Origin: an uncultured Kiritimatiellota bacterium
GTDB taxonomy: Bacteria > Verrucomicrobiota > Kiritimatiellia > RFP12 > DVOR01
Assembly (NCBI GenBank): GCA_944389945.1
Contig: CALXOF010000001.1
Coordinates: 3,016 to 67,015, forward strand
Reading direction: 5' to 3'
Length of the DNA stretch: 64,000 nucleotides
Shown: positions 11,902 through 61,593 of the stretch, piece by piece
How the letters are laid out: every line of letters begins with the position of its first letter
How positions within the stretch are numbered: the stretch's first letter is position 1
The notes under the pieces: generated by a model
Databases searched by the model: none
The model's input: the letters and a program-made list of their open reading frames with translations, nothing else
Told to the model about the DNA's origin: nothing
Program-made: the position numbers and the translations under genes

Positions 11902-12232
11902 TTGGCTGATTAGCTGATTGGTGGGGCGGCGGTGCCGCCCCGGGAGGGAACCGCAGATTTCACAGATTTTGAGCAGATTAAGGGCGTGCTAGCGCACGCA
12001 GGACGCTCATTGGAAGCTTAGAGGCTGACCGTGGAAGGTTTGGCGCGTTGCGCCTGCACGGGCTTTCTTGATGGGGCTCCGCCCCGCGCCCTGTAGTTTC
12101 TTTGTCGCCCCGCAGGGGCGCTCCTGAATCTCCTGTGCCGCCTTTGCATCGTGGTAGAACGACAGCGCCCCCTCTTTCCTGCAAGAGTTGCGTCTTTACG
12201 GGTCCCCATTTTCCAGGGCACGACCGGGCGAC

Positions 12233-12284: not shown

Positions 12285-13175
12285 TTGATGATGGCCCACT
12301 CCGGTAACATTCTCTTTTTGGGTGGCGATGACGCCCAACGCAAGGCAATTCAGGCCGCGCTGAAACAGGCGTGCATGGGGCATGCGCTCTGGGACTTCTC
12401 TGAAGATGTCGAGAGGGGCAAGCAGACGCTCTCTTTTATTAATGGGACGCGTGTCTGCACCTTTGCATTTCGCCCACTTCCCGAAGACGTCCTTGCTTGC
12501 CGCAAGGCGGCTGCAGGGGTGGGCGTGACCTTTTTGGTTTGCATGGTGGAGGCCTCCGGTGAACCGTCCCAGTCCGTCTCACAGGCGTTGGAGGCGTTGC
12601 GGCAAGACCCGGCCTCCCCGACCGTCTATCCGCTTCTTTTGCTCGGAGCGAACCCCACGCAGATGGAGCGCGCGCTTCTGAAGTGGGGTGGGATGGGGCT
12701 TTCTCTTGGGGGCTCGCCGGATGCGCCTTATGGCATGAATGCTCTCTTGGCTCGTTGTCTGCCGTGGATGGCGATGGGCGAGGCACAGGGTGAGCTCACT
12801 GTTGCGGAGGTCGAGACGTTCTGGGGCGACTATTGCCGCTATGGCACCCTCAAGGCCCTCAATCGCTTGACGTTGCGCCTCAAGGACGAAGGCATTCTCG
12901 CGCCGCTTGACTATGCCTGGTTCCTTCCGCAAGGGACGCGCACCGTGCTCTCAGAGGACGTCCGCGCCGACCTCACAAAGTTGGTGTCGCTCTTGCCAAA
13001 GAGCGGTTGTAGCGCCCTCACCGTGGCCGCTCGCAAGCAATACATCGCGCGAATCGACCGCTTGGAACTCAACACCTTCCAAGTGCGGGAGTGGCGCACC
13101 GCTTTCACGATAGCGCTAAAGGCCGCAAAGTTCGAGAAGGAAAAGCCCGCCCTGCCCGCGCGGGGGGAGGGGTAA
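12285..13175 (+). CDS. Hypothetical protein (lower-GC gene)
   Basis: 296-aa ORF with no recognisable motifs. Local GC is clearly below the window average. Confidence 0.5.
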   Translation: MMMAHSGNILFLGGDDAQRKAIQAALKQACMGHALWDFSEDVERGKQTLSFINGTRVCTFAFRPLPEDVLACRKAAAGVGVTFLVCMVEASGEPSQSVSQALEALRQDPASPTVYPLLLLGANPTQMERALLKWGGMGLSLGGSPDAPYGMNALLARCLPWMAMGEAQGELTVAEVETFWGDYCRYGTLKALNRLTLRLKDEGILAPLDYAWFLPQGTRTVLSEDVRADLTKLVSLLPKSGCSALTVAARKQYIARIDRLELNTFQVREWRTAFTIALKAAKFEKEKPALPARGEG

Positions 13176-13253
13176 TCCGCTTCGACAACCGCTCCTTCGA
13201 GTGCCAAAGAAGACGCCGTTGCGGGGAGTTTTCTCTTTTCGTTTGAGGGGCGC

Positions 13254-13655
13254 ATGAGCCCTCGCGCTTGGTTTGGTGCCAGTCTCTTGCTGGGCCTTTT
13301 AGGCGTTCCTGTCATTGCAATTTTGGCAGTGACTTCCGAGGAAGAAAGGTTCGTGCTTTTGATCACTTTTGGCATACCTCTGGGAATTGCGTGGATATGG
13401 GGGATATGCGCCACATCGGTGAGGCGCTTGCACGACATGGGTGCTCCGGGTGCCTTGATTTTGCCGGAGGCGGTTGCGCTGGTGGCAAGCCTCATTAAAG
13501 TGTGTGTGATGCTGTGCGCCGCGGATGATACGGTTGTCGCAGTGGAAAGCGGGTGGTCGCGCATGATCAGCTTTGTCATCGCGGTCGTTGGTTTTATTGT
13601 GATGATGATGCCGGGAGACCCAAAGGAAAATAAATACGGCGCCCCGTCGGTGTGA
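13254..13655 (+). CDS. DUF805-family inner-membrane protein
   Basis: Multiple TM helices. Hallmark 'RRLHDMG' and C-terminal '...KENKYGAPS' (DUF805 ends in N-YG). Confidence 0.65.
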   Translation: MSPRAWFGASLLLGLLGVPVIAILAVTSEEERFVLLITFGIPLGIAWIWGICATSVRRLHDMGAPGALILPEAVALVASLIKVCVMLCAADDTVVAVESGWSRMISFVIAVVGFIVMMMPGDPKENKYGAPSV

Positions 13656-50275: not shown

Positions 50276-51300
50276 CCAAATCTTATCCGCCTTCCTCTGC
50301 ATTAGCAGAAGTATAGCAAATCCACCCCCGCCCACAAAACGGTTTTTTGGAAGTTTGGAAGCTTAGAAGTTTGGAGGAGCCACAGAGGTGAAAGCCCGAC
50401 CCGCCGCCCCTGGCGGCGATGAGACCGAACGCTGCGCGGCTATCACCGTGCAGGCCCAAAGGGCCAAACCTTCCACGGCTAAGAACACGAAGAACCACAA
50501 AGGTACACAAAGAGCACGACGCAGGGGGCGGGCCGTGCGTGTGCGCAAGGCGCACGTCTGGCCCGGGGGCCTGAAGGGGCATGGCGGGCTTCGCACGCCA
50601 TGCTTTGGTTTTGGGGAGTCCTCTGGCGTCAGCCCCGTCCTATAGGTCTTATACGTCCTATATGTCCTACCGCGTCGCCATTTGGTACGTTGGTGCAGGG
50701 GCGGCTTGGAAGTTTGGTCAACGGCCTTGTCCGTCGCGCGTTTACGCGCGCTCCTGCATCTCCTGCATCTCCTGCATCTCCTGCTGGGGTGTCCTTCTGG
50801 CACGTCCGCAGGGCGTGCCGCCGGTGCAGGTGCAACTTGCACCTGCCGGGGTCAAGGGGCGGCGCCCCTTGCGGGGCGTGGGGCAGCGCCCCACACCCTT
50901 CAATCAACCAATCAGCTAATCAGCCAAAATCCCCTTTGTGTCCTTAGCCGTGGAAGGTTTGTCGCTTCGCGCCTGCACGGTGTCCTTTGTGATTTCCAAT
51001 CCATTCTGGCAGTCCTGCCGGCGGTAGCCGGCCCAAAAATCTGCTCTAATCTGCGCAATCTGCGGTTCCTCACACTGGCAGTCCTTCTCCCTTCGTGCCC
51101 CTTCGTGCACCTTCGTGTCAGCCCCGCAGGGTAAACCTTCCACACCCTCCCAGCGGCTCCGTCCCTTGCGCCTTTTTGTGTCTTCGTGGAAAGAGGGAAG
51201 CGATTTTTCTTGCATACTGGCTCACGTTATGCTATCTTCTTCACCCGCAATGGAAACCCAGCCAGGTTTCCGTCACCCATTTGTTTACGAGAAAGCAAGG
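50276..51300. repeat. Mosaic repeat block
   Basis: ttggaagcttagaagtttggagg octads, ggtctcatcgccgcc module reverse-complemented, ataggac octads, degenerate triple-hairpin module, aatcagctaatcagcc heptads, gattagagcagattttt module. Confidence 0.7.
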
Positions 51301-51308
51301 ACCATAAC

Positions 51309-51572
51309 ATGCCTAACATCAAGAGCGCCGCCAAGCGTGTGAAGACCGCCGCCAAGGCCAACCTGCGCAACCGCTCCGTCAAGAGCGAGCTCCTTACCTA
51401 CCGCAAAAAGGTCGAGGCCGCCATCGCCGGTGGCGACAAGACCGCCGCCTTCGCCGCCGTCTCCGCCTACGCTTCCAAGCTGGACAAGGCCGCCAAGAAG
51501 GGCGTGATCAAGCGCAACACCGCTGACCGCAAGAAATCCCGCACCGCCCAAGCCATCGCCAAGATGGCCTAA
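51309..51572 (+). CDS. rpsT: 30S ribosomal protein S20
   Basis: 'MPNIKSAAKRVKTAAKANLRNRSVKSELLTYRKK...' with an AAGGA ribosome-binding site. The track start at 51186 is rejected. Confidence 0.95.
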   Translation: MPNIKSAAKRVKTAAKANLRNRSVKSELLTYRKKVEAAIAGGDKTAAFAAVSAYASKLDKAAKKGVIKRNTADRKKSRTAQAIAKMA

Positions 51573-51612
51573 CCCGCCCGCGCCGCCGCGCGGCGTAGGC
51601 CGGTCCATGGCT

Positions 51613-51662
51613 CAATGGGACAAGAGAAGGGGCGCCCTCAGGCGCGCCTCTTCTCTTTTTTT
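51613..51662 (+). terminator. Probable terminator after rpsT
   Basis: GC hairpin ggggcgccctcaggcgcgcc followed by tcttctcttttttt. Confidence 0.5.
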
Positions 51663-51723
51663 GTCTTTTCTCCCCTCGCGCAAGGGTCAATGCGCACCCC
51701 AAAATCCCTAAATCCCCCTTCCC

Positions 51724-51834
51724 AGACCCTATAGGGGTCGGCCCCGAGACCCTATAGTGGTCCGGGTTGAGACCCTATAGTGGTCCGGGTTGAGACCCTA
51801 TAGTGGTCCACTGCGAGACCCTATAGTGGTCCGG
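51724..51834. repeat. Palindrome array (copy 4, variant): five gaccctatagtggtc units at a regular 24-bp period, without the aacccttaagggt ends
   Basis: Units begin at about 51724, 51747, 51771, 51795 and 51819. Spacers of 9 nt are ggccccgag, cgggttgag, cgggttgag, cactgcgag. Confidence 0.8.
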
Positions 51835-52620
51835 GAAGGGGTGGCGTGCACCACCCCGGAGAACAGAGAACGGAGAACAGAGAACAGAACGCGCGGCAAG
51901 CGCGCGACGGACAAGCCGCTGGAAGGGTGTGGAGGGTTTACCCTGCGGGGCTGACACGAAGGTTCACGAAGAACCACGAAGGCACACGAAGACTGCCAGA
52001 ATAGTTGAAATCACAAAGGACACCGTGCAGGCGCGAAGCGACAAACCTTCCACGGCTAAGGACACAAAGGGGATTTTGGCTGATTAGCTGATTGGTTGAT
52101 TGAAGGGTGTGGGGCGCTGCCCCACCCCCCGGCAGGGAGAAGTTCTCCCTGCACCCCCGGCACGTCTGCGACGTGCCAGAAGGACAGCGCGGTAGGACAT
52201 ATAGGACGTATAGGACCTATAGGACGGAGCTGATGCCGGAGGACTCCCCAAAAACCAAAGCATGGCGTGCGAAGCCCGCCATGCCCCTACAGGCCCCCCG
52301 GGCCGGACGAGCGCCTTGCGCGCACGCACGGCCCGCCCCCTGCGCCGTGCTTTGTGTCCTTCGTGTCCTTTGTGATTTCCAATCCATTCTGGCAGTCCTG
52401 CCGGCGGTAGCCGGCCCCGAATCGGCTCCAATCGGCGTAATCGGCGGTTTCCTTATTCTGGCAGTCTCAGGCATCGCGGTAGGACATATAGGACCTATAG
52501 GACATATAGGACGGCGGCTGACGCCGCTTGCACAACGATTTTGCCCGTCGCGCGCTTGCCGCGCGCTCTGTTCACTGTTTTCTGTTCTCTGTTCTCTGGG
52601 GCGCGTCAGCGCCCCAATTG
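51835..52620. repeat. Mosaic repeat block
   Basis: GAGAACG tracts, gcgcgcggcaagcgcgcg hairpin, tgattagctgattgg, triple hairpin, ataggac octads, gattacgccgattggagccgattcgggg module. Confidence 0.7.
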
Positions 52621-52662
52621 TGGTATCATTAGAGGCGACTTTGAGAGAAGGAGCAGACCGCG

Positions 52663-53463
52663 ATGACTTGGGGATTTTCCTCATTTGAGACGCGCTTCCG
52701 CTGGGCGGCGGCGCTATGGGCGATTCTGATGACGGTGTGGTGCATGAGCCCGCTGCCGTGGCAGGCACGCGCCATTGGCGGTTTGGTGTGGGTGGCCATT
52801 ACGATTGGTGTTTCGTTGCGCTTCTCCTGGTGGCGTCCGCGTTTGCCGCGCGATGTGCCCATCTGCCTGGTGGCGGGGGTCGACGTTGCGCTCTTGGAGC
52901 CGCTTGTGCGCAACCTTTTGGCCGCCGGTTACCGTTTTCAGACCGTGGGCGAGGCGTTGGAATCCCCGGCGCGCAAGGCTGTGGTGCTGACCTTCGATGG
53001 CGGCACGCGCGACCACTTCACCATCTTGCTTCCCTTCTTGCGCCGGATGGGCGTGAAGGCCACCTGCTTCGTCTCCGACAGCGGCATGCGTGACGCCGAG
53101 CACCTCAAGCCTATGGAGATGCAGGAAATGGTCCGCTCCGGCCTCATCGAGCTCGGCGGCTGGCTGGATGTCGCGACGGACGATCCCGCGGCTCTGCGCC
53201 AGGCCGTCGTGCGCGGACGCCGCTGGCTGACCGGCGTCACGGGGCGTCTGCCTATGGCCTTTGCTTACGCGCCCGGTCCCCATGCCGCGGCCCTTGCCCA
53301 AGCGGCACAAGAGGCCCATTACCGTCTGGCCCTTACCGAGGGCACGGGGCGGCCGCAACCCTTCGACAAGGCTCCCTTCGCGGTGACGCGCCACCGTATT
53401 CCCGCCGGACTGCGTCCGTGGCAGGCCTATCTTCTGGCGACGCGGGGGCGTTACCGGTGGTAA
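52663..53463 (+). CDS. Polysaccharide deacetylase (CE4/NodB-homology) with N-terminal TM helices
   Basis: 'VVLTFDGGTRD' motif 1 and an Asp/His-rich catalytic region. Preceded by an extended -10 TGTGGTATCAT and a GAAGGAG Shine-Dalgarno. Confidence 0.7.
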   Translation: MTWGFSSFETRFRWAAALWAILMTVWCMSPLPWQARAIGGLVWVAITIGVSLRFSWWRPRLPRDVPICLVAGVDVALLEPLVRNLLAAGYRFQTVGEALESPARKAVVLTFDGGTRDHFTILLPFLRRMGVKATCFVSDSGMRDAEHLKPMEMQEMVRSGLIELGGWLDVATDDPAALRQAVVRGRRWLTGVTGRLPMAFAYAPGPHAAALAQAAQEAHYRLALTEGTGRPQPFDKAPFAVTRHRIPAGLRPWQAYLLATRGRYRW

Positions 53464-54356
53464 GGCGGGCGCTTAACTTCTGCGCGGCGGTCGCCGTCGC
53501 GGCGATGGTGGGGTGCGAACGCCCCACTGTGGAGCCGCCCGCGAACCCCGATGCCCCGCTAGAATCCGACGTGGTCGCCGCGGTGGACGATGTCACGCTG
53601 ACCTGGGGCGAATTGGCGCGTCTGGCCCCGGAGGGCAACACCGATGCACGCCGTCAGGCTGTCCAACTTTTCCTTTACGAATCCCTGATTGCCAAGGAGG
53701 CGCAGGCCCACGGTATTGTCTTGGACGATGCCGCGTGGCGCACCTTCTCCGCTCAGTTCGCCGAGGCGACCGGCCTCTCTCCGGAGGCCTATGCCCGAGC
53801 TCACGGCGACGCGGAAATCTTGGCGGCTTTGCGCAGGGAGGCGCTGTCGCGTCTCTTCCTGGAACGCGTTGTCTACAAAGACATCAAAGTGCCTCCCTCG
53901 GTGGAAGAGGAGAACCGCGCGCGGGCCGAGGCCGAGGCGAATGAGGTGCGCCGCAAGATGGTGAGCCTACAGACGCAGGTCGCCATGGGTGCGGACTTCG
54001 AGGCCATCGTGCGCGAGCACTCCACCGCCACCGAGCCTATTCGCGTCTCGGTGCAGGAGATGGAAGAGAGTTGGCCTCCGGAATTGATGCGGGTCGTGAC
54101 GAGTCTGCCCATCGGCGCCGTGACGGATGTCGTGGAGATGCTGGGCGGACTGCTCATGTATCAGGTGGTGGCACGCGAGGGCGACGTCTTCACCCTGCGC
54201 GTCCTCTCCATGAACCTGCCGTTGCCCAACAAACAGGTGGCCGACTACATCTTCCAACAACTCCGCGAAGAGGCCTACTGGGCGTGGTTCCAGGATGCCT
54301 TCACCCGCCATCACGTCCGTTGCCCCCTCTTCCCAGACCTCGCCCCAGCGCAGTGA
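53457..54356 (+). CDS. SurA-N/PpiD-like periplasmic chaperone, probable lipoprotein
   Basis: GTG start overlapping the upstream stop. 'RRALNFCAAVAVAAMVGC' signal. SurA-N-like helical domain followed by a PPIase-like segment 'VVTSLPIGAVTDVVEMLGGLLMYQV'. Confidence 0.5.
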   Translation: MVRRALNFCAAVAVAAMVGCERPTVEPPANPDAPLESDVVAAVDDVTLTWGELARLAPEGNTDARRQAVQLFLYESLIAKEAQAHGIVLDDAAWRTFSAQFAEATGLSPEAYARAHGDAEILAALRREALSRLFLERVVYKDIKVPPSVEEENRARAEAEANEVRRKMVSLQTQVAMGADFEAIVREHSTATEPIRVSVQEMEESWPPELMRVVTSLPIGAVTDVVEMLGGLLMYQVVAREGDVFTLRVLSMNLPLPNKQVADYIFQQLREEAYWAWFQDAFTRHHVRCPLFPDLAPAQ

Positions 54357-54563
54357 TTCTCCACGAAGACACGAAGTGACGCAAGGGCCTGGGCACTTCA
54401 CCGTTCGGCCCGTTGGGCCTCACTACCGTGCCCATCCCTTGCGTCTCTGACGTTTCTTGGAGACTCTGCTTTTAAGATAAGAAAGGCGTGCGCGAGCACG
54501 CCCGAGATCTACGTTGCCCAATCTGGCAGTTTGCAAGCCTTTTCTTACGCCTAATGGCACGCT

Positions 54564-55892
54564 TTAGTGAAGTTTGTAACGAAGTCGCAACGGAAGCTCG
54601 CGCTTGGCATCTTCGTTACCATTCTTCGCACTTTCATAAAGCCACGTTTCTGCCAATTCCCGAGATTGAGGAACGCCCCATCCCATCTTGTAGCACTCCG
54701 ATAATTCATATTGGGCCCTGGCATGGTCTTGATTTGCGGCTTTTTGGAACCACTCTGCCGCGACTTTGCGGTCGCGTTCAACGCCATCGCCGACCTTATA
54801 TCGGATTCCAAGCGTAAATTGCGCATCGGCGTTCCCGGCGTCTGCGCTCTCCCGCAAATACGTCACTTGTTCCTCTGGCGTTCCTTCATCCCATTGCCCT
54901 TTAGCAAGCAATGCACCAAGGCAACCCTGCGCGACGTAATCCCCCTGTTGGGCGAGCGCTTCCACCCATGTAAGGACGAGTGGGAACTGCTGTAGGTCAG
55001 ACGAGGACATCTCCGTCACTCTATCAATCAACGCCTGCTTGGCCGTTTCATCGCCTTGTTTGGCGGCGGAGAGGAGATAACGAGTCGCGGTCTCTTGTGA
55101 GAGAGGAAGGTCTTCCCCTTGCGCGAGCTTGATAGCGACGCGGGCTTGGGCCGCGGTATTGTCGTTTTGGGCGGCGGCGAGGAGCCAGTCGCTGGCCTCC
55201 GGGTGTTTTGCCAGGGCCTCATCGCCGGCGGCGATGCGCCTGCCGAGGAGGATACGTGCCATAAGCATATCCTTCATGTTGAGCAACCATGCCGAAGGAA
55301 GTTCTTCCGGGCTAGGTTCCCATTGCTGGCGATAGGCCATGGCGATCAGTTGCCGTTGAGCATCCAGTCGACCCCGAACGGCGGCCATGCGATACCATGC
55401 CGCGGCCTCCTTGTAGGAGCGCGGCACAGTGAGATAATTGTTCGTGTAAACCGCGTTGTAGCGCGACTGAGAGCTAGACCCATTCAGGTAGGTCGTGGCG
55501 ACCCAGATTATCAGATCGGTCGAACCGACGTCGGCGAGTCTCTGCTTGGCCGCCTCGAAAACGAGCTTCGCCGACACTTTGCTTGCCACAAGGCAATCGG
55601 AGAACGCGTCCCCATGCAAGGGGCAGTTCTCTATCTGTGCGGCGGGTGCGACGCCCAGACCGAAGTCTTTGCAGAGGGTTAGACGACAAGCCACGCTCGC
55701 TTTCACGGCGTCATTGTCGCGGCGTGCCGCCTCTTGATAATACGCGTAGGCTTGGCCCCAGTCGCCCGCTTGCAATGCCGCATTGCCCTTGTCAAAGAAC
55801 TGCTCGGCGCGATATTCGCGAAGTTTCAGATAACCGACGGGGGCCGCAATCAGCGCCACCACTTCAATACCGAACAAGATTTTCGAAAGCAT
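54564..55892 (-). CDS. Membrane-anchored Sel1-like repeat (SLR/TPR) protein
   Basis: N-terminal TM helix 'ILFGIEVVALIAAPVGY'. Multiple Sel1 repeats ('AQFTLGIRYKVGDGVERDRKVAAEWFQKAANQDHARAQYELSECYKMGWGVPQS'). Confidence 0.75.
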   Translation of the reverse strand: MLSKILFGIEVVALIAAPVGYLKLREYRAEQFFDKGNAALQAGDWGQAYAYYQEAARRDNDAVKASVACRLTLCKDFGLGVAPAAQIENCPLHGDAFSDCLVASKVSAKLVFEAAKQRLADVGSTDLIIWVATTYLNGSSSQSRYNAVYTNNYLTVPRSYKEAAAWYRMAAVRGRLDAQRQLIAMAYRQQWEPSPEELPSAWLLNMKDMLMARILLGRRIAAGDEALAKHPEASDWLLAAAQNDNTAAQARVAIKLAQGEDLPLSQETATRYLLSAAKQGDETAKQALIDRVTEMSSSDLQQFPLVLTWVEALAQQGDYVAQGCLGALLAKGQWDEGTPEEQVTYLRESADAGNADAQFTLGIRYKVGDGVERDRKVAAEWFQKAANQDHARAQYELSECYKMGWGVPQSRELAETWLYESAKNGNEDAKRELPLRLRYKLH

Positions 55893-55902
55893 GGCCGCCT
55901 CC

Positions 55903-57120
55903 TTACGCGAGGACCCAAACCACGGCCCAAGCCGCGACGGCGGCCACGCCGCCCAACGTGGAGAGCGTCGCCCAGACGCGTTTGGAACGGCGTTCGTCCA
56001 GGATGGACTGCTTGGTCTTAAGCAGTTTCGTGATGGCTTCCTGTTTCCATCCCGCGGCCCGTGAGGTCGGCGCGGTCAAGGCCTTGAGCGCTTCGACGGT
56101 CTTATCGATGGCAGGAAGGATCTGCGGCTTACGTACCTCCGCGATGGTGGGTCGCAGGGTCTTGCACAAGGTTTCAGCGAAATTACACTCGTCGTCTGTG
56201 GTGGCGATGCCATCGTCGCTCTCACCCGAAGCTTCCAAGAACCAATGCAAACGCAAGGTTTCGGTTGCTGCACGGCAGGCACGCAAAGTCTCCTTAAGCA
56301 CATTAAAATCACTTTGTCGAAGCTCTTGGCAGAAAAGTCGGACCCGTGAGACAAAGGCTTTACGCGTCTGCCGACAGGCCGCGATGGCCTGTTGTACCAC
56401 CGGCGTATCCACCAAGCACCGGAGCATCAGATTATCCATGCCGATGGTCGTGTCGGCCGTGCCAAGGGCCGAGACCGCAAGCACGTCCAGATTCGGATAG
56501 TTCCCCGCAATCAAGGGTAGGTGCTGCGCCACGAAGGCGCGCGGGTCCAGCTCCACCGTGTCGGGGCTGAGATAGCGGTCAATCTGCGTGAGGAGCAGGG
56601 TCACCTTCGGGTGCGTGTGGAGACGGAAGAGGAAGTCCAGGCACGCGTTCGTCACCCACACCGCGTCCAAGTTACTCGGGGTTGTCTCCAGATTCTCCGC
56701 GTCCGCCAGATTGAAGAGCACGAAGACTTGGTCGGACTGCGTCAGGTGGCCCAAGAAGGCATCCAATTCCTCTTGGTTCGCGGCAATACGCTCCGAGAAG
56801 GAGACGGGATCCTGGTTGTCCACCTCATCCAAGAAGGCCAAGCGATAAATCTCGCCCGGATAGTCCAGGATGTCGCAGGTGCGCTGGGGCTTGCCGCCAT
56901 AGCACGCACTCCAGGCCAGGCGCCGCAAACTCGTGGTCTGGTGCGGCAACGACTCCCCTTCCAGTTGCTCCGGGAGCAACGTCAGGAAGCGGAAGGCCTC
57001 ACGCGTCTCCGGTCGCAACGACCATCCCGTCCGCTCATGCGCCTTGAAGGTCTTGACCAACGCCATCGTCAGCACCGACTTACCGGAGCCCTCAACGCCC
57101 AAAAAGGTAATGTTTCCCAT
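55903..57120 (-). CDS. Tail-anchored Ras-like small GTPase (TRAFAC class) of unknown function
   Basis: G1 'GVEGSGKS', G3 'DYPGE', G4-like 'LLTQID', G5 'VSALG'. About 180-aa helical region, then a C-terminal TM helix 'TLGGVAAVAAWAVVWVLA'. 10-nt gap to the Sel1 gene. Confidence 0.6.
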   Translation of the reverse strand: MGNITFLGVEGSGKSVLTMALVKTFKAHERTGWSLRPETREAFRFLTLLPEQLEGESLPHQTTSLRRLAWSACYGGKPQRTCDILDYPGEIYRLAFLDEVDNQDPVSFSERIAANQEELDAFLGHLTQSDQVFVLFNLADAENLETTPSNLDAVWVTNACLDFLFRLHTHPKVTLLLTQIDRYLSPDTVELDPRAFVAQHLPLIAGNYPNLDVLAVSALGTADTTIGMDNLMLRCLVDTPVVQQAIAACRQTRKAFVSRVRLFCQELRQSDFNVLKETLRACRAATETLRLHWFLEASGESDDGIATTDDECNFAETLCKTLRPTIAEVRKPQILPAIDKTVEALKALTAPTSRAAGWKQEAITKLLKTKQSILDERRSKRVWATLSTLGGVAAVAAWAVVWVLA

Positions 57121-57456
57121 GGTTCTCCAACGCTTTCTGCTTTGGGCCGACGCACTGCACGCGCCCGCCTCAATACGGTACGTATGCTAGCACATTAAGT
57201 GAAGCTCTGGCAAACCGTGGGAGGCTGGTGAGTAGAGGGGAGAACGGAAAACGGAAAACGGAGCGTGCAGGCGCAAGGCGCCAAACCTTCCACGGCTACG
57301 GAGCGCCCCTGCAGGGCGACGGGTGAGAGCGTTCTATGGAGCGGCTCTTTGCCAGTCGCGCGCTTGCCGCGCGTTCCGTTCTCTGTTCTCCGTTCTCCGT
57401 TCTCCGGGGCGGCGCAAGCCGCCCTATTTGCCTAGGGGGCGGGGATTTGATAGACT
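57121..57456. repeat. Divergent promoter region built of repeat modules (GAGAACG tracts, gtgcaggcgc(a/g)aggcgccaaaccttccacggc module)
   Basis: Lies between the GTPase gene (minus strand) and gspF (plus strand). Confidence 0.6.
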
Positions 57457-58707
57457 GTGGGCATTATGGCGACGTTCAGTTACGTGGCGCTGAATAAACA
57501 AAAGGCGAAGGTGTCGGGGGCGATAGAGGCCGCCGACCGGCGGGGTGCACTCGCGTCGCTGAAGGGGCAGGGGTTGATGCCGCTCTCCATCACGGAGGAA
57601 CAGGGCGCGAAGAAGGCGTCGCAGACGCAGGCTTCGTTTTGGAAGCTTTCGTCGGGCCCGGCGAAGAAGATGAAGCCGGGCGAAGTGTTGCTCTTTACCT
57701 CCGAGCTGGCAGACCTGATTGAGGCCGGCATGACGTTGGGGGCGGCGCTGAACTCCTTGGCGAACCAGGGCGACCCGAACAGCGGCATCTGCGTGGTTGC
57801 GGCTGATTTGCGCGACCGGATTATGCGCGGCGAGGCCTTCTCGGACGCGGTGGGGGCGCACCCGGATACCTTCCCGGCGATTTATGGCAACATGGTGCGC
57901 GCGGGCGAGGCCTCGGGCGCGATGGTGGAGGTGTTGCGGCGTCTGGGCGAGCACTACGAGCGCAACCAGTCGATGCGGAGCAAGATTATCTCGGCGCTGA
58001 CCTATCCGTGCATTGTGTTGGGTATGGGCGTGCTGGCGGTGATCTTTGCGATGGTCAAGATCGTGCCGCAGTTCACGGAGCTTTTCTCGAGCATGGGCAA
58101 GGAGCTGCCTTTGCCGACGCGGATGCTGATGGGGATGAGCGAGGGGCTCATCAAGTATGGCGTCTTCATCGGCATCGGGCTGGTCTTTGGCGTCGTCGCC
58201 CTGCGGAAGTGGTGCAAGGGCGCGGGGCGCGCGCGGTGGGACCGCTTCAAGCTTCGGATGCCGTTGGTGAAGGGCTTGGTGGCGAGCGGGGCGTACGCGT
58301 CGCTGGCCTATACGTTGCAGACGCTCTTGGCCAACGGCGTGAACGTGCTTCAGGCGCTGCGCATCTCCGAGGAGACCTGCGGCAACGCCGTGATCGAGGC
58401 CGAGTTGCGCAAGGCTCGCGAACGCGTGACCGACGGCACCACCATCTCCGGTCCGCTGGCGCAGAGCGGCGTCTTCCCGCGCTTGATGACCGACATGATG
58501 GCCCTGGGCGAGCAGACGGGCAACCTGCCCGGCGCCCTTGGCCGCATCGGCAAGCGTTATGAGGCCGAGCTTAATCGCAACATCAAGATTTTCACCACCG
58601 CCTTGGAGCCCATCTTGATTCTCTTGGTGGCGCTGGTGGTGGGTTTCGTGGCCATCGCCATCCTCTCGGCGGTCTTCTCCGCCACCTCGGCGATGGGCCA
58701 GGCCTAA
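57457..58707 (+). CDS. GspF/PilC-family inner-membrane platform protein (T2SS/T4P)
   Basis: Two T2SSF domains. 'FSYVALNKQKAKVSG...' N-terminus typical of GspF. Three TM segments. Start may be Met4, at 57466. Confidence 0.85.
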   Translation: MGIMATFSYVALNKQKAKVSGAIEAADRRGALASLKGQGLMPLSITEEQGAKKASQTQASFWKLSSGPAKKMKPGEVLLFTSELADLIEAGMTLGAALNSLANQGDPNSGICVVAADLRDRIMRGEAFSDAVGAHPDTFPAIYGNMVRAGEASGAMVEVLRRLGEHYERNQSMRSKIISALTYPCIVLGMGVLAVIFAMVKIVPQFTELFSSMGKELPLPTRMLMGMSEGLIKYGVFIGIGLVFGVVALRKWCKGAGRARWDRFKLRMPLVKGLVASGAYASLAYTLQTLLANGVNVLQALRISEETCGNAVIEAELRKARERVTDGTTISGPLAQSGVFPRLMTDMMALGEQTGNLPGALGRIGKRYEAELNRNIKIFTTALEPILILLVALVVGFVAIAILSAVFSATSAMGQA

Positions 58708-58728
58708 CTTGAAGGAAAGGGACAGAAC

Positions 58729-59118
58729 ATGAAGGTCAAGAACCGCAAACTCCGCCGCGCAGGCTTCACCCTGGTGGAACTCCTGCTCGTGATCACCATT
58801 CTGGGCATCCTCGGCACCGTGGTGGTGATGAACTTCGGTGATGTGGGTGGCGATGCCCGCAAGGAAACCACACGCCAGTCCATCCTGGCCATCGACCAGG
58901 CCGTGACCGTCTACAACACCAAGGTCGGCCATATGCCCAAGGACATCAGCGATCTCACTAAGCCTATCAACGATAGCAAACAAGGGTTGCTGAAGTCCAA
59001 AGATGTCAACGATGCCTGGGGCAATCCCTTCGAGTTCAAGATGGAAGACGGTTCGTACACCATCCGTTCCGCCGGCCCTGACGGCCAGATGAACACCGAA
59101 GACGACATCACGAATTGA
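58729..59118 (+). CDS. GspG-like major pseudopilin with class-III (prepilin) signal
   Basis: 'RRAGFTLVELLLVITILGILGTVVV' cleavage/methylation motif. 'DAWGNPFEFK...YTIRSAGPDGQMNTEDD' GspG-type C-terminus. Confidence 0.8.
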   Translation: MKVKNRKLRRAGFTLVELLLVITILGILGTVVVMNFGDVGGDARKETTRQSILAIDQAVTVYNTKVGHMPKDISDLTKPINDSKQGLLKSKDVNDAWGNPFEFKMEDGSYTIRSAGPDGQMNTEDDITN

Positions 59119-59127
59119 GGACCGGCC

Positions 59128-59559
59128 ATGAAGCGAATCTTTGCCTTGTTTTGCCTTGTCGCAGTGGGTGCCTCCATCGGGTGCGATGGAGAGTCGTCCT
59201 CTGCGGACAAGGACGCCCAATTCAAAGAGGACGTCCACACTATCGCGGACTTTATTCGGGCCAATGAGGAAAGAAGCGATGAGATGGCCTCGCAAGCTCG
59301 CGTGGAGACAACGGGTAAAGCCATTGAAGCCCTCGACCAGGCCGTTCTTATCTATCAAATCAAAGTCGGGCGCTTGCCTATGAGTCTTCGTGATCTCACC
59401 AAGGGCATCAACGACGACGACGAGGGCCTGCTGAAGTCCAACGACGTCATCGACGCTTGGGGCAATCCCTTCGAGTACAAGGTGGACGGTAAGAAGTACA
59501 CCATCCGCTCCGCCGGCCCCGACGGCCAGATGAACACCGAAGACGACATCACGAACTGA
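59128..59559 (+). CDS. GspG-like globular domain fused to a lipoprotein signal peptide (paralog 2)
   Basis: 'MKRIFALFCLVAVGASIGC' lipobox replaces the prepilin helix. C-terminal 90 aa are about 70% identical to the upstream pseudopilin ('DAWGNPFEYKVDGKKYTIRSAGPDGQMNTEDDITN'). Confidence 0.7.
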   Translation: MKRIFALFCLVAVGASIGCDGESSSADKDAQFKEDVHTIADFIRANEERSDEMASQARVETTGKAIEALDQAVLIYQIKVGRLPMSLRDLTKGINDDDEGLLKSNDVIDAWGNPFEYKVDGKKYTIRSAGPDGQMNTEDDITN

Positions 59560-59568
59560 GGACTAGCA

Positions 59569-59913
59569 ATGAAGCGGATTTTGGGCTTGCTTTGCCTTCT
59601 TACCGTGGGCGCCTCCATCGGGTGCAATGGCGATGATTTGGACACGGCCGTCCGTAAGGAGACCACGCGCCAGACTATCGCCGCCATCGATTTCGCCATC
59701 TCTACCTATAAAGCCAAGAACAACAAGGTGCCCACGAGCCTGACTGATTTGGCCGTAGGTGTCGCCGGAGAGCAACCGCTTGTGAGTGCGGAGATGTTCA
59801 ACGATGCCTGGGGTAATCCCTTGGAGCTCTCGGTCAATGCGGCGATGAAGTACACCATTCGCTCCGCCGGCCCCGATGGCAAGATGAACACCGAGGACGA
59901 CATCACGAACTGA
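59569..59913 (+). CDS. GspG-like globular domain fused to a lipoprotein signal peptide (paralog 3)
   Basis: 'MKRILGLLCLLTVGASIGC'. 'NDAWGNPLELSVNAAMKYTIRSAGPDGKMNTEDDITN'. Confidence 0.7.
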   Translation: MKRILGLLCLLTVGASIGCNGDDLDTAVRKETTRQTIAAIDFAISTYKAKNNKVPTSLTDLAVGVAGEQPLVSAEMFNDAWGNPLELSVNAAMKYTIRSAGPDGKMNTEDDITN

Positions 59914-59919
59914 GGCATC

Positions 59920-61593
59920 ATGACGCTGGACGACACCATCGAAATCGCCATCGAGGGCGAGACGCAAGAGCGCGTCGTGGACTATGGCACGCCGTTGGGG
60001 GACCTTCTGCCGAAGGAGGTGGGGGGCCTGCCCGTGCTGGCGGCCTTGGCGAACAATGACGTGGTGCCGTTGGACGCGCCGGCCATCGTGGACCTGCGGG
60101 TGCGTCCGCTGACGTTGGCCGACGAGGAGGGGTGGCAGGTCTATCGCAGGACGCTCTGCTTCCTCTTGGCCGCGGTGTTGCACGCGGAGTTTCCGGGGAC
60201 CGATTGTCGGGTGCGGCAGAGTTTCGGCCACAATGCGCTCTTCTGGACGTGGGACGTGCCGCACGCGGAGCGCGAGGCGAAGGTGGCGGCGTTGCGCGGG
60301 CGCCTGGCGGCGCTCGTGGCGCGCGACGCGCCCATCAACCATCGCGTGGTGGGCTACGAACAGATGCTCCAGGGGTTCCGCGAGCATGGGCAGGAAGATA
60401 AGGCGATGCTGTTGGAGCACCGCAATCCGCCCTATCTGGGGATGGCTGTCTGCGAGGAGTTTTACGACCTGCCGCAGGGGGTGCTGGCTACGCACTCGGG
60501 CGTCATCCGGCTCTTCGACATTGTGCCGCTGCGGGATGGGTTCGTGCTGGAGTTCCCGGGCTTCAAGACGCCCATGGAGCTCGACCCGATGCCGCCCTAC
60601 GACTTCCTCTTTGAGGTTTATGCCGAGCATCTGCGTTGGGGGGAGATTATCGGCATCCGCAATGCGGGTGAGCTGAACGCCGCCATCGCCGATGGGTCGG
60701 TGGCGGACGTCATCAACACGGTGGAGGCCCTGCACGAGAAGCGTCTCTCCGGTTTCGCCGACCGTATCGCGGCGCGGGTGCCGCGTCCGCACGTGGTGTT
60801 GGTGGCCGGACCGAGCTCGTCGGGCAAGACGACCTTTGCTATGCGTCTCTGCACCCACCTGCGCGTCTTGGGGTTGCGGCCGACGTTGCTCTCCACGGAC
60901 AACTACTTCGTGGGGGACAAGCGCAACCCGCGCGACGAGCATGGGAATCTGGACTACGAGTGCCTGCAGGCGGTGGACGTGCCGCGCCTGAACGCCGACC
61001 TGTTGAAGTTGATCAAGGGCGAGACCATCCCGTTGCGCAAGTTCAACTTCCGCGAACACGAGGGCTACGACTCCGACGAGACGGTGTCGCTCGACCCGCA
61101 GCTGGGCGTGCTCGTCATCGAGGGCATCCATGCGTTGAACCCGGATCTGACTCCGCAGATTCCGCGCGAGGAGAAGTTCCTCATCTATGTCAATGTCCTT
61201 ACCCAGGTCTCCATCGACAGCCACAACCGCGTCTCGACCCTCGACAACCGCTTGCTCCGCCGCATGGTGCGCGATGGACAGTTCCGCGGGCGCAGTCCCC
61301 TGGAGACGCTCCGTCTGTGGCCCAGCGTGCGCGCCGGCGAGGAGAAGTGGGTCTTCCCCTTCCAGCATTACGCCGACGCCGTCTTCAACACCGCATTGGA
61401 CTACGAAATCCCCGTGCTGAAGACCCTCGCGCGCCCCTTGCTCAACCAAATCAAGCCCCATCACCCGGAGTACGTCGTGGCCCGGCGCCTCTCCTGCTTC
61501 TTGCAGAACTTCGCCTCCATGCCGATGGCCGACGTCCCCACCAACTCCATTTTGCGCGAATATCTCGGCGCCTCGCGCCTGCGCTATAAGTAA
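59920..61593 (+). CDS. Uridine-kinase/phosphoribulokinase-family nucleoside kinase with N-terminal TGS-like domain
   Basis: P-loop 'VLVAGPSSSGKTTFAMRL'. 'LLSTDNYF', 'VLVIEGIHALNP', 'YVNVLTQVSID'. About 270-aa N-terminal extension. Confidence 0.7.
   Translation: MTLDDTIEIAIEGETQERVVDYGTPLGDLLPKEVGGLPVLAALANNDVVPLDAPAIVDLRVRPLTLADEEGWQVYRRTLCFLLAAVLHAEFPGTDCRVRQSFGHNALFWTWDVPHAEREAKVAALRGRLAALVARDAPINHRVVGYEQMLQGFREHGQEDKAMLLEHRNPPYLGMAVCEEFYDLPQGVLATHSGVIRLFDIVPLRDGFVLEFPGFKTPMELDPMPPYDFLFEVYAEHLRWGEIIGIRNAGELNAAIADGSVADVINTVEALHEKRLSGFADRIAARVPRPHVVLVAGPSSSGKTTFAMRLCTHLRVLGLRPTLLSTDNYFVGDKRNPRDEHGNLDYECLQAVDVPRLNADLLKLIKGETIPLRKFNFREHEGYDSDETVSLDPQLGVLVIEGIHALNPDLTPQIPREEKFLIYVNVLTQVSIDSHNRVSTLDNRLLRRMVRDGQFRGRSPLETLRLWPSVRAGEEKWVFPFQHYADAVFNTALDYEIPVLKTLARPLLNQIKPHHPEYVVARRLSCFLQNFASMPMADVPTNSILREYLGASRLRYK

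What the first reader, a model, noticed from the sequence alone, without database searches (positions are those of the whole stretch)
54564..57120. Two-gene operon: tail-anchored Ras-like GTPase plus membrane Sel1-repeat protein, divergent from gspF
The 405-aa product has a complete small-GTPase motif set (G1 GVEGSGKS, G3 DYPGE, G4-like TQID, G5 SAL). This is followed by a long helical region and a single C-terminal TM helix, i.e. a tail-anchored topology that is unusual for bacterial small GTPases such as MglA. It is co-transcribed (10-nt gap) with a 442-aa protein that has an N-terminal TM anchor and at least 6 Sel1-like repeats. The pair shares a repeat-filled divergent promoter region with the gspF/pseudopilin cluster. 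This looks like an uncharacterised membrane GTPase-switch module, possibly regulating the adjacent secretion or pilus apparatus (inference).
Basis: partly seen in the sequence, partly recalled or inferred. Interest (0 to 1): 0.6.

Follow-up and report, generated by a model that had tools for sequence, protein, structure and literature searches.

The report
Membrane-anchored GTPase with Sel1-repeat partner
Two tightly coupled genes in a gut PVC bacterium encode a membrane-tethered GTP switch and a repeat-protein partner; they belong to a small, fast-diversifying, unannotated family, move between genomes as a cassette, and are probably not tied to the secretion genes next door.

Summary
ORFs 55903-57120(-) (405 aa) and 54564-55892(-) (442 aa) are real and sit 10 nt apart with an SD in the gap. 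They are bounded by a promoter-like and a terminator-like site.

More precisely, it belongs to a divergent, unannotated branch of the DO-GTPase/YcjX-like GTPases, which carry a Glu in Walker B. The family consensus scores 27.1 bits against Pfam DO-GTPase1 (cutoff 27); the window protein scores nothing.

The partner is a TM-anchored solenoid of about 8 Sel1 units. The pairing is conserved, sometimes tandemly triplicated, and often fused into one polypeptide. The G domain averages 57% identity, against about 16% for the stalk and TM, and Sel1 repeat number varies widely.

The link to gspF is not supported. An 88%-identical cassette sits in an unrelated neighbourhood, and the "promoter repeats" are a genome-wide hairpin element. 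More distant relatives add a PrsW protease, an orphan domain and DUF805.

Best reading: a diversifying membrane sensor-switch module. Topology and output are unresolved.

The parts
57184..57213 (-). Sigma-70-like promoter candidate for the two-gene operon (TTGCCA-18-TAGCAT with a TG extension), about 64 nt upstream of the GTPase ATG.
   Evidence: Consensus scan. Three sites were found against 0.8 expected from shuffles. This is a prediction only.
55903..57120 (-). 405-aa tail-anchored GTPase (DO-GTPase/YcjX-like TRAFAC branch), stop codon included.
56416..57120 (-). G domain (aa 1-235). G1 57076-57099, switch-I QTT 56932-56940, G3 DYPGE 56851-56865, FNLAD 56701-56715, G4 TQID 56578-56589, G5 SAL 56464-56472.
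   Evidence: Translation. Invariant or near-invariant columns. Mean identity to homologs 57%. Family consensus vs Pfam DO-GTPase1: 27.1 bits, E=3e-6.
55981..56415 (-). Alpha-helical stalk/bundle (aa 236-380), hypervariable between homologs.
   Evidence: AF2 helices 240-266, 269-290, 309-327, 332-347, 353-404. Mean identity 16%. No Pfam match.
55906..55980 (-). C-terminal transmembrane tail anchor (aa 381-405, RVWATLSTLGGVAAVAAWAVVWVLA), preceded by a K/R-rich flank.
   Evidence: Hydropathy. A C-terminal TM is present in nearly all full-length homologs.
55893..55902 (-). 10-nt intergenic spacer carrying a GGAGG ribosome-binding site. This is an operon junction and suggests translational coupling.
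   Evidence: Sequence. The same 10-11 nt spacing occurs in L001, L003, L006 and L007.
54564..55892 (-). 442-aa partner, stop codon included. N-terminal TM (aa 1-24; 55821-55892) with a conserved intramembrane Glu10 and an LREYR juxtamembrane motif, a TPR-like N-region, then about 8 Sel1-like repeats (aa 160-442; 54567-55415).
   Evidence: Pfam Sel1 E=3e-21. AF2 pLDDT 84.3. Foldseek to Sel1 structures 6ok3, LceB, c5321, LpnE, SEL1L. N-terminal motif conservation. Repeat listing.
54484..54503 (-). Intrinsic-terminator-like hairpin plus T-rich tail, about 60 nt after the partner's stop codon.
   Evidence: Consensus scan. The number of such sites is not above shuffle expectation, so this rests on position only.
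57230..57425 (.). Copy of a dispersed ~190-bp hairpin repeat element with (GGAGAAC/GGAAAAC)n arms, sitting between the operon promoter and gspF. It is not a dedicated regulatory feature of this operon.
   Evidence: Inverted repeats I14/I19 and shared segments D3-D5. Fold -114.9 kcal/mol, z=-5.9. 12 core copies and 33 heptamer-array matches in the window. The element is also present next to the cassette in L001 and L003.
12285..13175 (+). Possible degenerate paralog (pseudo-GTPase, 296 aa, no TM). P-loop GGDDAQRK and Walker B PLPED are lost, while the YGxxxLxxRCL and WFLP motifs are retained. Tentatively part of the same family's gene set.
   Evidence: hhalign to the family profile: 269 columns, prob 82%, E=1e-5. 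blastp to P0011: E=1e-6 in a small database. The relationship is weak.
13254..13655 (+). DUF805 membrane protein immediately downstream of the pseudo-GTPase. DUF805 is a recurrent operon partner of this GTPase family in other genomes.
   Evidence: Pfam DUF805 E=1.6e-10, above cutoff. GTPase-(Sel1)-PrsW-UNK-DUF805 operons in L004, L006-L009, L012-L014, L017 and L018.

Best explanation
The two genes form an autonomous operon encoding a split, membrane-tethered sensor-switch module.

Gene 1 is a GTP-binding switch of a PVC-specific, unannotated branch of the DO-GTPase/YcjX-like TRAFAC GTPases. It has a cytoplasmic G domain with DYPGE (Glu in Walker B) and TQxD (guanine specificity), a hypervariable helical stalk, and a C-terminal TM anchor.

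Gene 2 is a TM-anchored Sel1 solenoid. It corresponds to the variable C-terminal domain that single-chain relatives carry (Sel1 repeats or an FGE-sulfatase-type domain).

Inferred mechanism:
1. The two proteins associate at the inner membrane through their single TM helices and the stalk.
2. The Sel1 solenoid binds a protein or envelope ligand.
3. Binding changes the GTP/GDP state or the oligomerisation of the G domain.
4. The G domain then gates downstream partners. In relatives these are a PrsW-type intramembrane protease, an orphan ~125-aa domain protein and DUF805 membrane proteins. In this genome they are not adjacent.

The family behaves like a diversifying, cassette-like system: a constant G core with variable stalk and sensor, tandem paralogs, and different genomic contexts. 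A conflict/defence-type role or an envelope-surveillance role is therefore more likely than housekeeping, and it is not a dedicated T2SS/pilus regulator.

Shown: fold, motifs, family placement, pair conservation and fusions, diversification pattern, non-conservation of the gspF adjacency.
Inferred: physical interaction, direction of signalling, ligand, biological role, and the side of the membrane on which the Sel1 domain lies.
For: - Motif conservation: GVEGxGK[ST] and DYPGE at constant spacing in about 115 of 120 homologs. Q61, D86, P88, E90, N137, D140 and T178 are invariant; T62, Q179 and D181 are >=90% conserved. More distant members keep DFAGE and TQxD.
- Family placement: 47/121 homologs hit DO-GTPase1 and 38/121 hit DO-GTPase2. 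The consensus scores 27.1 bits against a cutoff of 27 over residues 6-206. Distant members reach up to 27.0 bits on DO-GTPase2. DO-GTPases are defined by a Glu in Walker B (PMC7159879). E. coli YcjX shares the DYPGE motif.
- Pairing: a TM-Sel1 gene lies directly downstream in the window, L001, L003, L004 (three tandem pairs), L006-L009, L014 and L017.
- Fusions: single-chain G-stalk-TM-Sel1 proteins with 7-18 repeats, and G-TM-FGE-sulfatase proteins. TM-less G-Sel1 and G-FGE fusions also exist.
- Diversification: G domain 57% mean identity vs stalk 16% and TM 15%. Partner length is 144-942 aa and 393-706 aa among close orthologs. Where the GTPase is 90% identical, the partner is 61% identical.
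- Cassette behaviour: window/L001 DNA homology is confined to 57262-55037. In L003 the gspF flank is 95% identical but the cassette only 76%.
- Operon signals.
Against: - There is no biochemical or genetic evidence for any member of the family, and no literature on it was found.
- The window protein itself has no Pfam, NCBIfam or PADLOC hit.
- The partners that define described DO-GTPase systems (GAP1, GASH, FNIII, Zn-ribbons) are absent.
- No effector or output gene is present in the window operon, so 'switch for what' is unknown.
- Membrane topology of the Sel1 domain is ambiguous. Single-TM fusions put it opposite the G domain. Two-TM and TM-less fusions put it on the same side. Flank charges do not decide.
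- G5 is poorly conserved and G4 has Gln instead of Lys, so nucleotide specificity is inferred, not shown.
- L012, L013 and L018 have the GTPase with PrsW/UNK/DUF805 but no Sel1 gene, so Sel1 is not an obligate partner across the family.
Confidence: 0.55

Rival explanations
1. One reading: the pair is a GTPase switch that regulates the divergently transcribed gspF/pseudopilin (T2SS or type IV pilus-like) apparatus, as MglA-type GTPases regulate motility machines.
For: - gspF (T2SSF, E=3e-53) and three T2SSG pseudopilins lie directly across a 336-bp divergent intergenic region.
- L003 (77% identity) also has a T2SSF gene upstream in divergent orientation.
- MglA is among the Foldseek hits (E=4.5e-4).
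Against: - In L003 an extra 569-aa Sel1 gene separates the two.
- L001 (90% identity) sits between a methyltransferase/gyrA and an Mla operon.
- None of the other ~20 distinct loci has T2SS genes within 8 kb.
- DNA homology to L001 ends inside the intergenic repeat.
- The shared intergenic region is filled by a dispersed repeat element.
- The MglA similarity is no better than the similarity to many other GTPases.
Confidence: 0.05
2. Specific sub-hypothesis A. The module is the sensor-switch part of an anti-phage/conflict system of the Kaur-Aravind 'GTPase-centric' type. Variable Sel1 or FGE-type domains recognise invader proteins, the GTPase sets a threshold, and PrsW protease and DUF805 membrane proteins (elsewhere in this genome) act as processing and membrane-damaging effectors.
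For: - Constant core with hypervariable stalk and sensor.
- Tandem paralog arrays and cassette relocation.
- FGE-sulfatase ('FGS') and repeat modules are shared with described DO-GTPase and MoxR-vWA systems (PMC7159879).
- Neighbours with a defence-island flavour in several loci: PDDEXK_9/AAA-ATPase-like, PDDEXK_4, an SbcCD-like pair, Fic, MNT-type NTase.
- The same PDDEXK_9 gene type lies next to the window's pseudo-GTPase/DUF805 pair.
Against: - No PADLOC hit for either protein.
- No GAP1 and no recognisable toxin domain.
- DO-GTPase systems themselves are only predicted to be conflict systems.
- The window operon has no effector.
- PrsW and DUF805 are equally compatible with envelope physiology.
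Confidence: 0.3
3. Specific sub-hypothesis B. The module is a transmembrane 'receptor GTPase' for envelope surveillance. The Sel1 solenoid is periplasmic and binds peptidoglycan, glycan or a periplasmic protein. The signal passes through the paired TM helices and stalk to the cytoplasmic G domain. The role is analogous to the psp-linked YcjX/YcjF stress pair, and in relatives it couples to PrsW-type regulated proteolysis.
For: - At least 10 cluster representatives have exactly one TM between the G-stalk and long Sel1 arrays or an FGE domain.
- Solved bacterial Sel1 proteins that match the model are secreted or periplasmic, for example HcpC, AlgK and c5321 (their localisation is stated from general knowledge).
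- PrsW is the site-1 protease of the envelope-stress anti-sigma RsiW (general knowledge).
- The YcjX family is linked to membrane stress.
Against: - Two-TM fusions and TM-less G-Sel1 and G-FGE fusions place the variable domain in the cytoplasm.
- K/R residues follow the partner's TM directly (LKLREYR).
- No sigma/anti-sigma or other transcriptional output is linked in the window.
Confidence: 0.3
4. Both soluble domains are cytoplasmic. The Sel1 protein is simply a membrane-tethered scaffold or GAP/GEF-like cofactor that docks on the G domain or stalk, and there is no transmembrane signalling.
For: - TM-less and two-TM natural fusions.
- More K/R residues after the partner's TM than before it.
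- The stop and start codons abut the two TMs, as expected for fission of a TM-hairpin protein.
Against: - The single-TM fusions with the longest Sel1 arrays contradict this arrangement.
- K/R-rich post-TM flanks also occur in those single-TM fusions, so charge is not diagnostic.
Confidence: 0.25

Closest known systems
DO-GTPases (Pfam PF19975 DO-GTPase1 / PF19993 DO-GTPase2) of the 'GTPase-centric' predicted conflict systems (Kaur, Burroughs, Iyer, Aravind 2020, eLife; PMC7159879)
   Same: - TRAFAC GTPase with a conserved Glu directly after the Walker B Gly (DYPGE or DFAGE).
- Consistent near-threshold HMM matches across the whole G domain.
- Membrane proximity: some described DO-GTPases have a C-terminal TM followed by extracellular domains.
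- Association with variable repeat and FGS/FGE-type modules.
- A constant core combined with variable components.
   Different: - No GAP1, GASH or FNIII partners and no N-terminal zinc ribbons.
- A single GTPase gene rather than a paralogous pair at the locus.
- Different recurrent partners: TM-Sel1, PrsW, an orphan domain and DUF805.
- A different host range: gut and rumen Kiritimatiellae/Lentisphaerae.
- The window protein itself is below detection by the Pfam models.
YcjX (DUF463) stress GTPase with its membrane partner YcjF (DUF697), E. coli / Shewanella (PDB 6nz4)
   Same: - Shares the GxxxSGKT P-loop and the identical DYPGE Walker B.
- The GTPase gene is immediately followed by a membrane-protein gene.
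- The family is linked to membrane stress.
   Different: - Sequence-profile similarity is marginal: hhalign prob 25%, and DUF463 is hit in only 2/121 homologs.
- YcjX is soluble and larger (465 aa, with large insertions).
- Its partner is DUF697, not Sel1.
Membrane-anchored eukaryotic small GTPases: SRbeta (N-terminal anchor) and Miro (C-terminal tail anchor)
   Different: No sequence relationship beyond the superfamily. Different partners and biology. These are analogies of architecture only.
MglA/MglB polarity switch
   Same: A bacterial Ras-like GTPase that works with a dedicated partner. It is a Foldseek hit (3t1o, E=4.5e-4).
   Different: MglA is soluble, lacks the stalk, the TM and the Walker-B Glu, and pairs with a Roadblock/LC7 GAP. 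There is no conserved link to motility or pilus genes here.
Bacterial and eukaryotic Sel1-repeat (SLR) proteins: Oxalobacter SLRs, Legionella LceB/LpnE, E. coli c5321/EsiB, Helicobacter HcpC, AlgK, SEL1L/Hrd3
   Same: The partner passes the Pfam Sel1 threshold, and its model superposes on these solenoids. SLRs typically act as protein-binding adaptors. SEL1L/Hrd3 is likewise a TM-anchored SLR that partners with a membrane machine.
   Different: It is N-terminally TM-anchored with a family-specific E-in-TM/LREYR motif, it is always paired or fused with a GTPase, and its repeat number is highly variable.

Membership tests
TRAFAC-class small GTPase (Ras-like fold) | P-loop G1 GxxxxGK[ST] | tested here: met
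   GVEGSGKS at aa 8-15. It is present at the same position in about 115 of 120 homologs.
TRAFAC-class small GTPase (Ras-like fold) | Switch-I Thr and G3 DxxG | tested here: met
   Q61 is invariant and T62 is >=90% conserved just before beta2. D86 is invariant and G89 is >=90% conserved (DYPGE).
TRAFAC-class small GTPase (Ras-like fold) | G4 [NT]KxD guanine-specificity motif after beta5 | tested here: met
   TQID at 178-181 directly follows strand 172-178. T178 is invariant; Q179 and D181 are >=90% conserved. Lys is replaced by Gln. YcjX has TKAD at the equivalent place, stated from my recollection of the E. coli sequence; the hhalign alignment does not reach it.
TRAFAC-class small GTPase (Ras-like fold) | Overall G-domain fold | tested here: met
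TRAFAC-class small GTPase (Ras-like fold) | GTP binding and hydrolysis | not testable with these tools
   This needs biochemistry on the soluble domain.
DO-GTPase (Kaur et al. 2020; PF19975/PF19993) | Conserved Glu in Walker B (DxxGE) | tested here: met
   E90 is invariant in 121 sequences. Distant members have DFAGE. The definition comes from PMC7159879.
DO-GTPase (Kaur et al. 2020; PF19975/PF19993) | Match to the Pfam model above the gathering score | tested here: inconclusive
   - Window protein: no hit even at E<=10.
- Homologs: 47/121 hit DO-GTPase1 and 38/121 hit DO-GTPase2, best E=1.4e-6, and none was recorded above the cutoff.
- Family consensus: 27.1 bits against a cutoff of 27.
- Distant member P0345: 27.0 bits on DO-GTPase2.
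DO-GTPase (Kaur et al. 2020; PF19975/PF19993) | GAP1 (GAP1-N1/N2-M-C) gene downstream or fused | tested here: not met
   The downstream gene is a Sel1 protein. The orphan partner of relatives has no Pfam hit at E<=1. No GAP1, GASH or GAAD hits appear in the 121 homologs.
DO-GTPase (Kaur et al. 2020; PF19975/PF19993) | Paralogous GTPase pair and/or N-terminal zinc ribbons | tested here: not met
   The protein starts 7 residues before the P-loop, so there is no Zn ribbon. There is no second GTPase at the locus. Only a degenerate paralog lies 43 kb away. Some relatives have an extra truncated GTPase gene (L012, L017).
YcjX-like (DUF463, PF04317) | HMM or profile similarity across the domain | tested here: not met
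   DUF463 is hit in 2/121 homologs at E~0.006. The consensus hits it at E=0.007, only around DYPGE. hhalign of YcjX against the family gives prob 25%. A PDB profile search does not retrieve YcjX.
YcjX-like (DUF463, PF04317) | YcjF/DUF697 membrane partner | tested here: not met
   The partner is TM-Sel1. No DUF697 is seen in any locus table.
Sel1 repeat family (PF08238) | Pfam match above gathering score and SLR solenoid structure | tested here: met
   75.4 bits against a cutoff of 30.7. AF2 solenoid with pLDDT >90 for aa 160-430. Foldseek E=4e-11 to Sel1 crystal structures.
T2SS / type IV pilus accessory regulator | Conserved genomic linkage to T2SS/T4P genes | tested here: not met
   T2SSF lies near the GTPase only in the window lineage and L003. 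It is absent from L001 and all other loci.
Known anti-phage defence systems (PADLOC-DB v2) | HMM match to any catalogued defence protein | tested here: not met
   No hit at E<=1 for either protein.

The most novel reading that the evidence does not exclude
The family may be a previously unrecognised class of bacterial single-pass 'receptor GTPases'. A variable ligand-binding ectodomain (Sel1 solenoid or FGE-type domain) would be coupled through one TM helix and a helical stalk to a cytoplasmic DxxGE G domain, so that a GTPase cycle, rather than a kinase, carries the signal across the inner membrane. In this window the receptor would be split into two TM-anchored subunits. In relatives its outputs would be regulated intramembrane proteolysis (PrsW) and DUF805 membrane proteins.
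Probability: 0.25. Interest if true: 0.8.

Novelty: new variant of a known kind. Interest (0 to 1): 0.5.

Why it matters
If the model is right, gut and rumen PVC bacteria carry a family of membrane-tethered GTPase switches with plug-in sensor domains. The family has 544 50%-identity clusters among 1.84 billion representatives, and none of the homologs listed carries an informative name.

This would extend the computationally predicted DO-GTPase 'GTPase-centric' systems to a new partner set (TM-Sel1, PrsW protease, an orphan domain, DUF805). It would also extend them to a new architecture, tail-anchored or single-pass.

It would give DUF805 and a PrsW subfamily a functional context. It would also offer a compact two-gene system in which GTPase-based signalling at the bacterial membrane, whether for envelope surveillance or phage defence, can be tested directly.

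It also shows that divergent adjacency to a secretion cluster can be misleading when the intergenic region is a hotspot of dispersed repeats.

Tried and rejected
- Pfam, NCBIfam and PADLOC on the window GTPase gave nothing beyond generic P-loop noise.
- A profile search of PDB sequences returned only P-loop-level and coiled-coil noise and did not find YcjX.
- The AFDB50 fold library was unavailable, so no survey of predicted structures was possible.
- Rfam found no RNA family anywhere in the window, including the hairpin repeat.
- tblastn for in-window paralogs of either protein, and for PrsW or the orphan domain, found nothing significant apart from a weak DUF805 hit. The degenerate paralog was recognised only by profile comparison.
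- A homolog search with the orphan partner domain returned only close, unnamed relatives, and Pfam at E<=1 gave nothing, so its nature stays unknown.
- Literature searches for PrsW+DUF805 and for tail-anchored GTPase+Sel1 in bacteria found nothing relevant.
- I tried to settle the partner's membrane orientation from flank charges and from natural fusions. The charges are ambiguous, and the fusion classes disagree with one another.
- I rejected three readings: an ABC/KAP/kinase-type P-loop (fold and G3/G4 conservation), a T2SS regulator (no conserved linkage), and a dedicated regulatory role for the intergenic repeats (dispersed element).

Full report
**1. The observation**

The window has two same-strand ORFs at exactly the reported coordinates: 55903-57120(-), 405 aa, and 54564-55892(-), 442 aa. 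They are separated by 10 nt. On the coding strand the junction reads TAA-GGAGG-CGGCC-ATG, so a Shine-Dalgarno sequence sits in the gap.

A sigma-70-like promoter (57213->57184, with a TG extension) lies 64 nt upstream of the first ATG. A hairpin plus T-tract (54503-54484) lies about 60 nt after the second stop. Both are consensus predictions only, but they bracket a self-contained two-gene unit.

The exact 405-aa protein is recorded on 11 metagenome contigs with the same neighbours. Named relatives come from gut and rumen MAGs labelled Kiritimatiellae, Lentisphaeraceae or Candidatus Spyradenecus, all in the PVC group.

**2. The 405-aa protein is a real GTPase-fold protein**

- Translation confirms GVEGSGKS, QTT, DYPGE, TQID and SAL at the stated places.
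- In 120 homologs the P-loop and DYPGE recur at constant spacing.
- In the 121-row alignment Q61, D86, P88, E90, N137, D140, W155, T157 and T178 are invariant. G8-K14, T62, G89, Q179 and D181 are at least 90% conserved. G5 is weakly conserved.
- An AlphaFold model built on this alignment is confident (pLDDT 88.5, pTM 0.80). TQID sits right after strand 172-178 and SAL after strand 212-215, which are the canonical G4 and G5 positions.

**3. Which GTPase family**

The window protein hits no Pfam, NCBIfam or PADLOC model. However, 47 of 121 homologs hit Pfam DO-GTPase1 and 38 hit DO-GTPase2. That is far more than hit any other GTPase family (SRP54 12, MMR_HSR1 2, DUF463/YcjX 2), although all these hits are below threshold.

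The family consensus G domain scores 27.1 bits on DO-GTPase1 (cutoff 27) over residues 6-206. More distant members reach 27.0 bits on DO-GTPase2.

Kaur et al. (PMC7159879) define DO-GTPases as a TRAFAC family with a conserved Glu in Walker B. E90 is invariant here, and distant members have DFAGE. E. coli YcjX carries the identical DYPGE, but profile similarity to it is marginal (hhalign prob 25%).

The defining partners of the described DO-GTPase systems are absent: GAP1, GASH or FNIII, and zinc ribbons. I therefore place the protein in a divergent, unannotated sister branch of DO-GTPases, not in the described systems.

An exhaustive profile search finds only 544 cluster representatives with E<=1e-3 (99 with E<=1e-30) among 1.84 billion. 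It is a small family.

**4. Architecture**

After the G domain (aa 1-235) comes a helical stalk (aa 236-380), whose last helix runs straight into a C-terminal TM (aa 381-405). The TM is preceded by a K/R-rich flank. Nearly all full-length homologs end in one TM, and some in two or three.

Conservation is sharply bipartite. Mean identity to the window protein is 57% in the G domain, 16% in the stalk and 15% in the TM.

**5. The partner**

The 442-aa protein has:
- an N-terminal TM (aa 1-24) with a conserved intramembrane Glu10 and Pro18, and an LREYR juxtamembrane motif;
- a lower-confidence TPR-like N-region;
- about 8 Sel1-like hairpins from aa 160 to 442 (Pfam Sel1 E=3e-21; AF2 pLDDT 84.3; listing).

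Its model matches Sel1 crystal structures: Oxalobacter SLRs, LceB, c5321, LpnE, SEL1L, HcpC and AlgK.

**6. Is the pair conserved? Yes**

A TM-Sel1 gene follows the GTPase at 10-21 nt in L001 (90% identity), L003 (77%), L004/L005 (three tandem GTPase-Sel1 pairs), L006, L007-L009, L014 and L017. All these partners are mutually homologous and share the TM/LREYR start. They range from 144 to 942 aa through repeat-number change. Close orthologs alone span 393-706 aa.

Independent 'Rosetta-stone' fusions exist: G-stalk-TM-Sel1 proteins with 7-18 repeats, such as P0026, P0262, P0266, P0267, P0269, P0279 and P0282. Other proteins have an FGE-sulfatase-type domain in place of Sel1.

The pairing is not universal. 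L012, L013 and L018 lack Sel1.

**7. Wider context in relatives**

A recurrent operon is GTPase-(TM-Sel1)-PrsW protease-orphan protein-DUF805. It is seen in L004, L006-L009, L012-L014 and L018, and partly in L017.

In a more distant subgroup the GTPase is followed only by the orphan protein (L010, L019, L021, L023-L031). That protein has a conserved N-terminal domain of about 125 aa (PLAxYTAxHGLxWTY...WDFxGRDAxYL) and often a C-terminal TM. It has no Pfam match and only close, unnamed relatives.

None of these genes is adjacent to the window operon. However, at 12285-13655 the window encodes a 296-aa protein that aligns over 269 columns to the GTPase family profile (prob 82%, E=1e-5). It has lost the P-loop, Walker B and the TM. 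A bona fide DUF805 gene (E=1.6e-10) follows it directly.

**8. The gspF link**

gspF (T2SSF, E=3e-53) and three T2SSG pseudopilins do lie divergently upstream. Against a functional link:
- The 88%-identical cassette in L001 sits between a methyltransferase/gyrA and an Mla operon, and DNA homology to the window is confined to 57262-55037.
- In L003 the gspF flank is 95% identical but the GTPase-Sel1 cassette only 76%, and an extra Sel1 gene intervenes.
- No other locus has T2SS genes.

The 336-bp intergenic region is mostly a ~190-bp hairpin element (z=-5.9). Its core occurs 12 times in the window, and its heptamer arrays give 33 matches at a dozen or more separate places. The element also flanks the cassette in L001 and L003.

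The adjacency therefore looks like the result of rearrangement at a repeat hotspot, not a regulatory coupling.

**9. Mechanism**

Shown:
- a GTPase-fold protein with intact catalytic motifs, tethered to the membrane;
- a TM-tethered protein-binding solenoid, co-encoded or fused with it;
- a conserved switch domain combined with rapidly varying stalk, TM and sensor;
- tandem paralogy and cassette-like relocation.

Inferred:
- The two proteins associate at the membrane.
- The solenoid, or the FGE-type domain in relatives, is the ligand-recognition arm.
- The G domain is the switch.
- In relatives, PrsW, the orphan domain and DUF805 are the downstream components.

Whether the Sel1 arm is periplasmic or cytoplasmic cannot be decided here. 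Single-TM fusions put it opposite the G domain. Two-TM fusions (P0089, P0091 and similar) and TM-less G-Sel1 or G-FGE fusions (P0354, P0329, P0344) put it on the same side. Flank charges are uninformative.

The biological role is also open. It could be conflict/defence in the sense of Kaur et al., or envelope surveillance in the sense of YcjX/psp and PrsW. I rate the two as about equally likely. No PADLOC match and no toxin domain were found, and no literature on such a pair was found.

**10. Verdict**

The 'uncharacterised membrane GTPase-switch module' reading is supported and sharpened to a DO-GTPase/YcjX-like branch with a Sel1 sensor arm and cassette-like diversification. The suggested control of the neighbouring secretion or pilus genes is not supported.

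It is a new variant of a known, computationally defined kind. Interest is moderate. Interest would be higher if the single-pass receptor-GTPase reading proves true.

Noticed in passing
window 12285-13175 (+) and 13254-13655 (+): A 296-aa ORF aligns over its whole length to the GTPase family profile (hhalign prob 82%). It has a destroyed P-loop (GGDDAQRK), no DxxGE and no TM, so it is a candidate pseudo-GTPase paralog. A DUF805 membrane protein (Pfam E=1.6e-10) follows it directly, and DUF805 is a recurrent operon partner of this family elsewhere. Local GC is lower here (0.56-0.585).
   Followed up: partly
window 13886-15463 (+): A 525-aa AAA-ATPase_like + PDDEXK_9 protein (E=1e-52 / 7e-17) lies next to the pseudo-GTPase/DUF805 pair. 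The same gene type lies beside the family's operons in L009 and L012.
   Followed up: no
window 57230-57425; also 50430-51000, 51839-52062, 52540-52603, and near 12026, 13784, 23534, 35807, 37182, 37682, 39641 and 42878: A dispersed intergenic hairpin repeat family. The core CAAACCTTCCACGGCTA occurs 12 times (0.01 expected). The arms are built from 7-nt units (GTTCTCC/GTTTTCC)n, which give 33 matches. The 57.2-kb copy folds at -114.9 kcal/mol (z=-5.9). There is no Rfam match. The element is also present in related genomes L001 and L003 next to the cassette, so it may be a MITE/REP-like recombination hotspot.
   Followed up: partly
window 50300-52700: The region around rpsT (about 51300-51572) is packed with nested inverted copies of repeat segments (131-nt arms, 98% complementary, at 50866-50996 and 52007-52137). 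It also holds short tandem arrays: a 23-nt unit x4-5 at 51724-51835, 9-nt units at 50751-50784, and TAGGAC-type units at 52176-52236 and 52463-52514.
   Followed up: no
window 57457-61593: gspF is followed by three short T2SSG pseudopilin genes (129, 143 and 114 aa) and then a 557-aa PRK/uridine-kinase-family protein. No GspE ATPase or GspD secretin was seen in the part examined, so this is an incomplete or dispersed T2SS/T4P-like cluster.
   Followed up: no
L010 3112-3864; L023 9645-10076; L004 14489-15457; L007 10912-12018: An orphan ~125-aa domain (PLAxYTAxHGLxWTY...GYEG...WDFxGRDAxYLxVxW), often with a C-terminal TM, is the most widespread gene partner of this GTPase family. It has no Pfam, NCBIfam or literature identity. 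It might be a GAP1-like cofactor or an anti-sigma-like substrate of the adjacent PrsW protease.
   Followed up: partly
L003 4495-10707 versus window 54019-58451: In the syntenic relative, the gspF flank is 95% identical at the DNA level while the GTPase-Sel1 cassette is only 76% identical. An additional divergent 569-aa Sel1 gene is inserted between gspF and the GTPase. This suggests cassette replacement or accelerated divergence.
   Followed up: partly
P0329, P0344, P0289 (G domain + FGE-sulfatase, no TM); P0354 (G domain + Sel1, no TM); P0305 (G domain ... DnaJ CXXCXGXG): Distant family members are soluble fusions of the same G domain to FGE-sulfatase-type, Sel1 or DnaJ zinc-finger modules. 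The variable 'sensor' arm is therefore interchangeable and not always extracytoplasmic.
   Followed up: partly
L004 3500-13447: Three consecutive GTPase + TM-Sel1 gene pairs (partners of 438, 942 and 496 aa) precede a single PrsW-orphan-DUF805 set, which is then followed by NfeD and Band_7 genes. This is a tandem paralog array sharing one downstream module.
   Followed up: no
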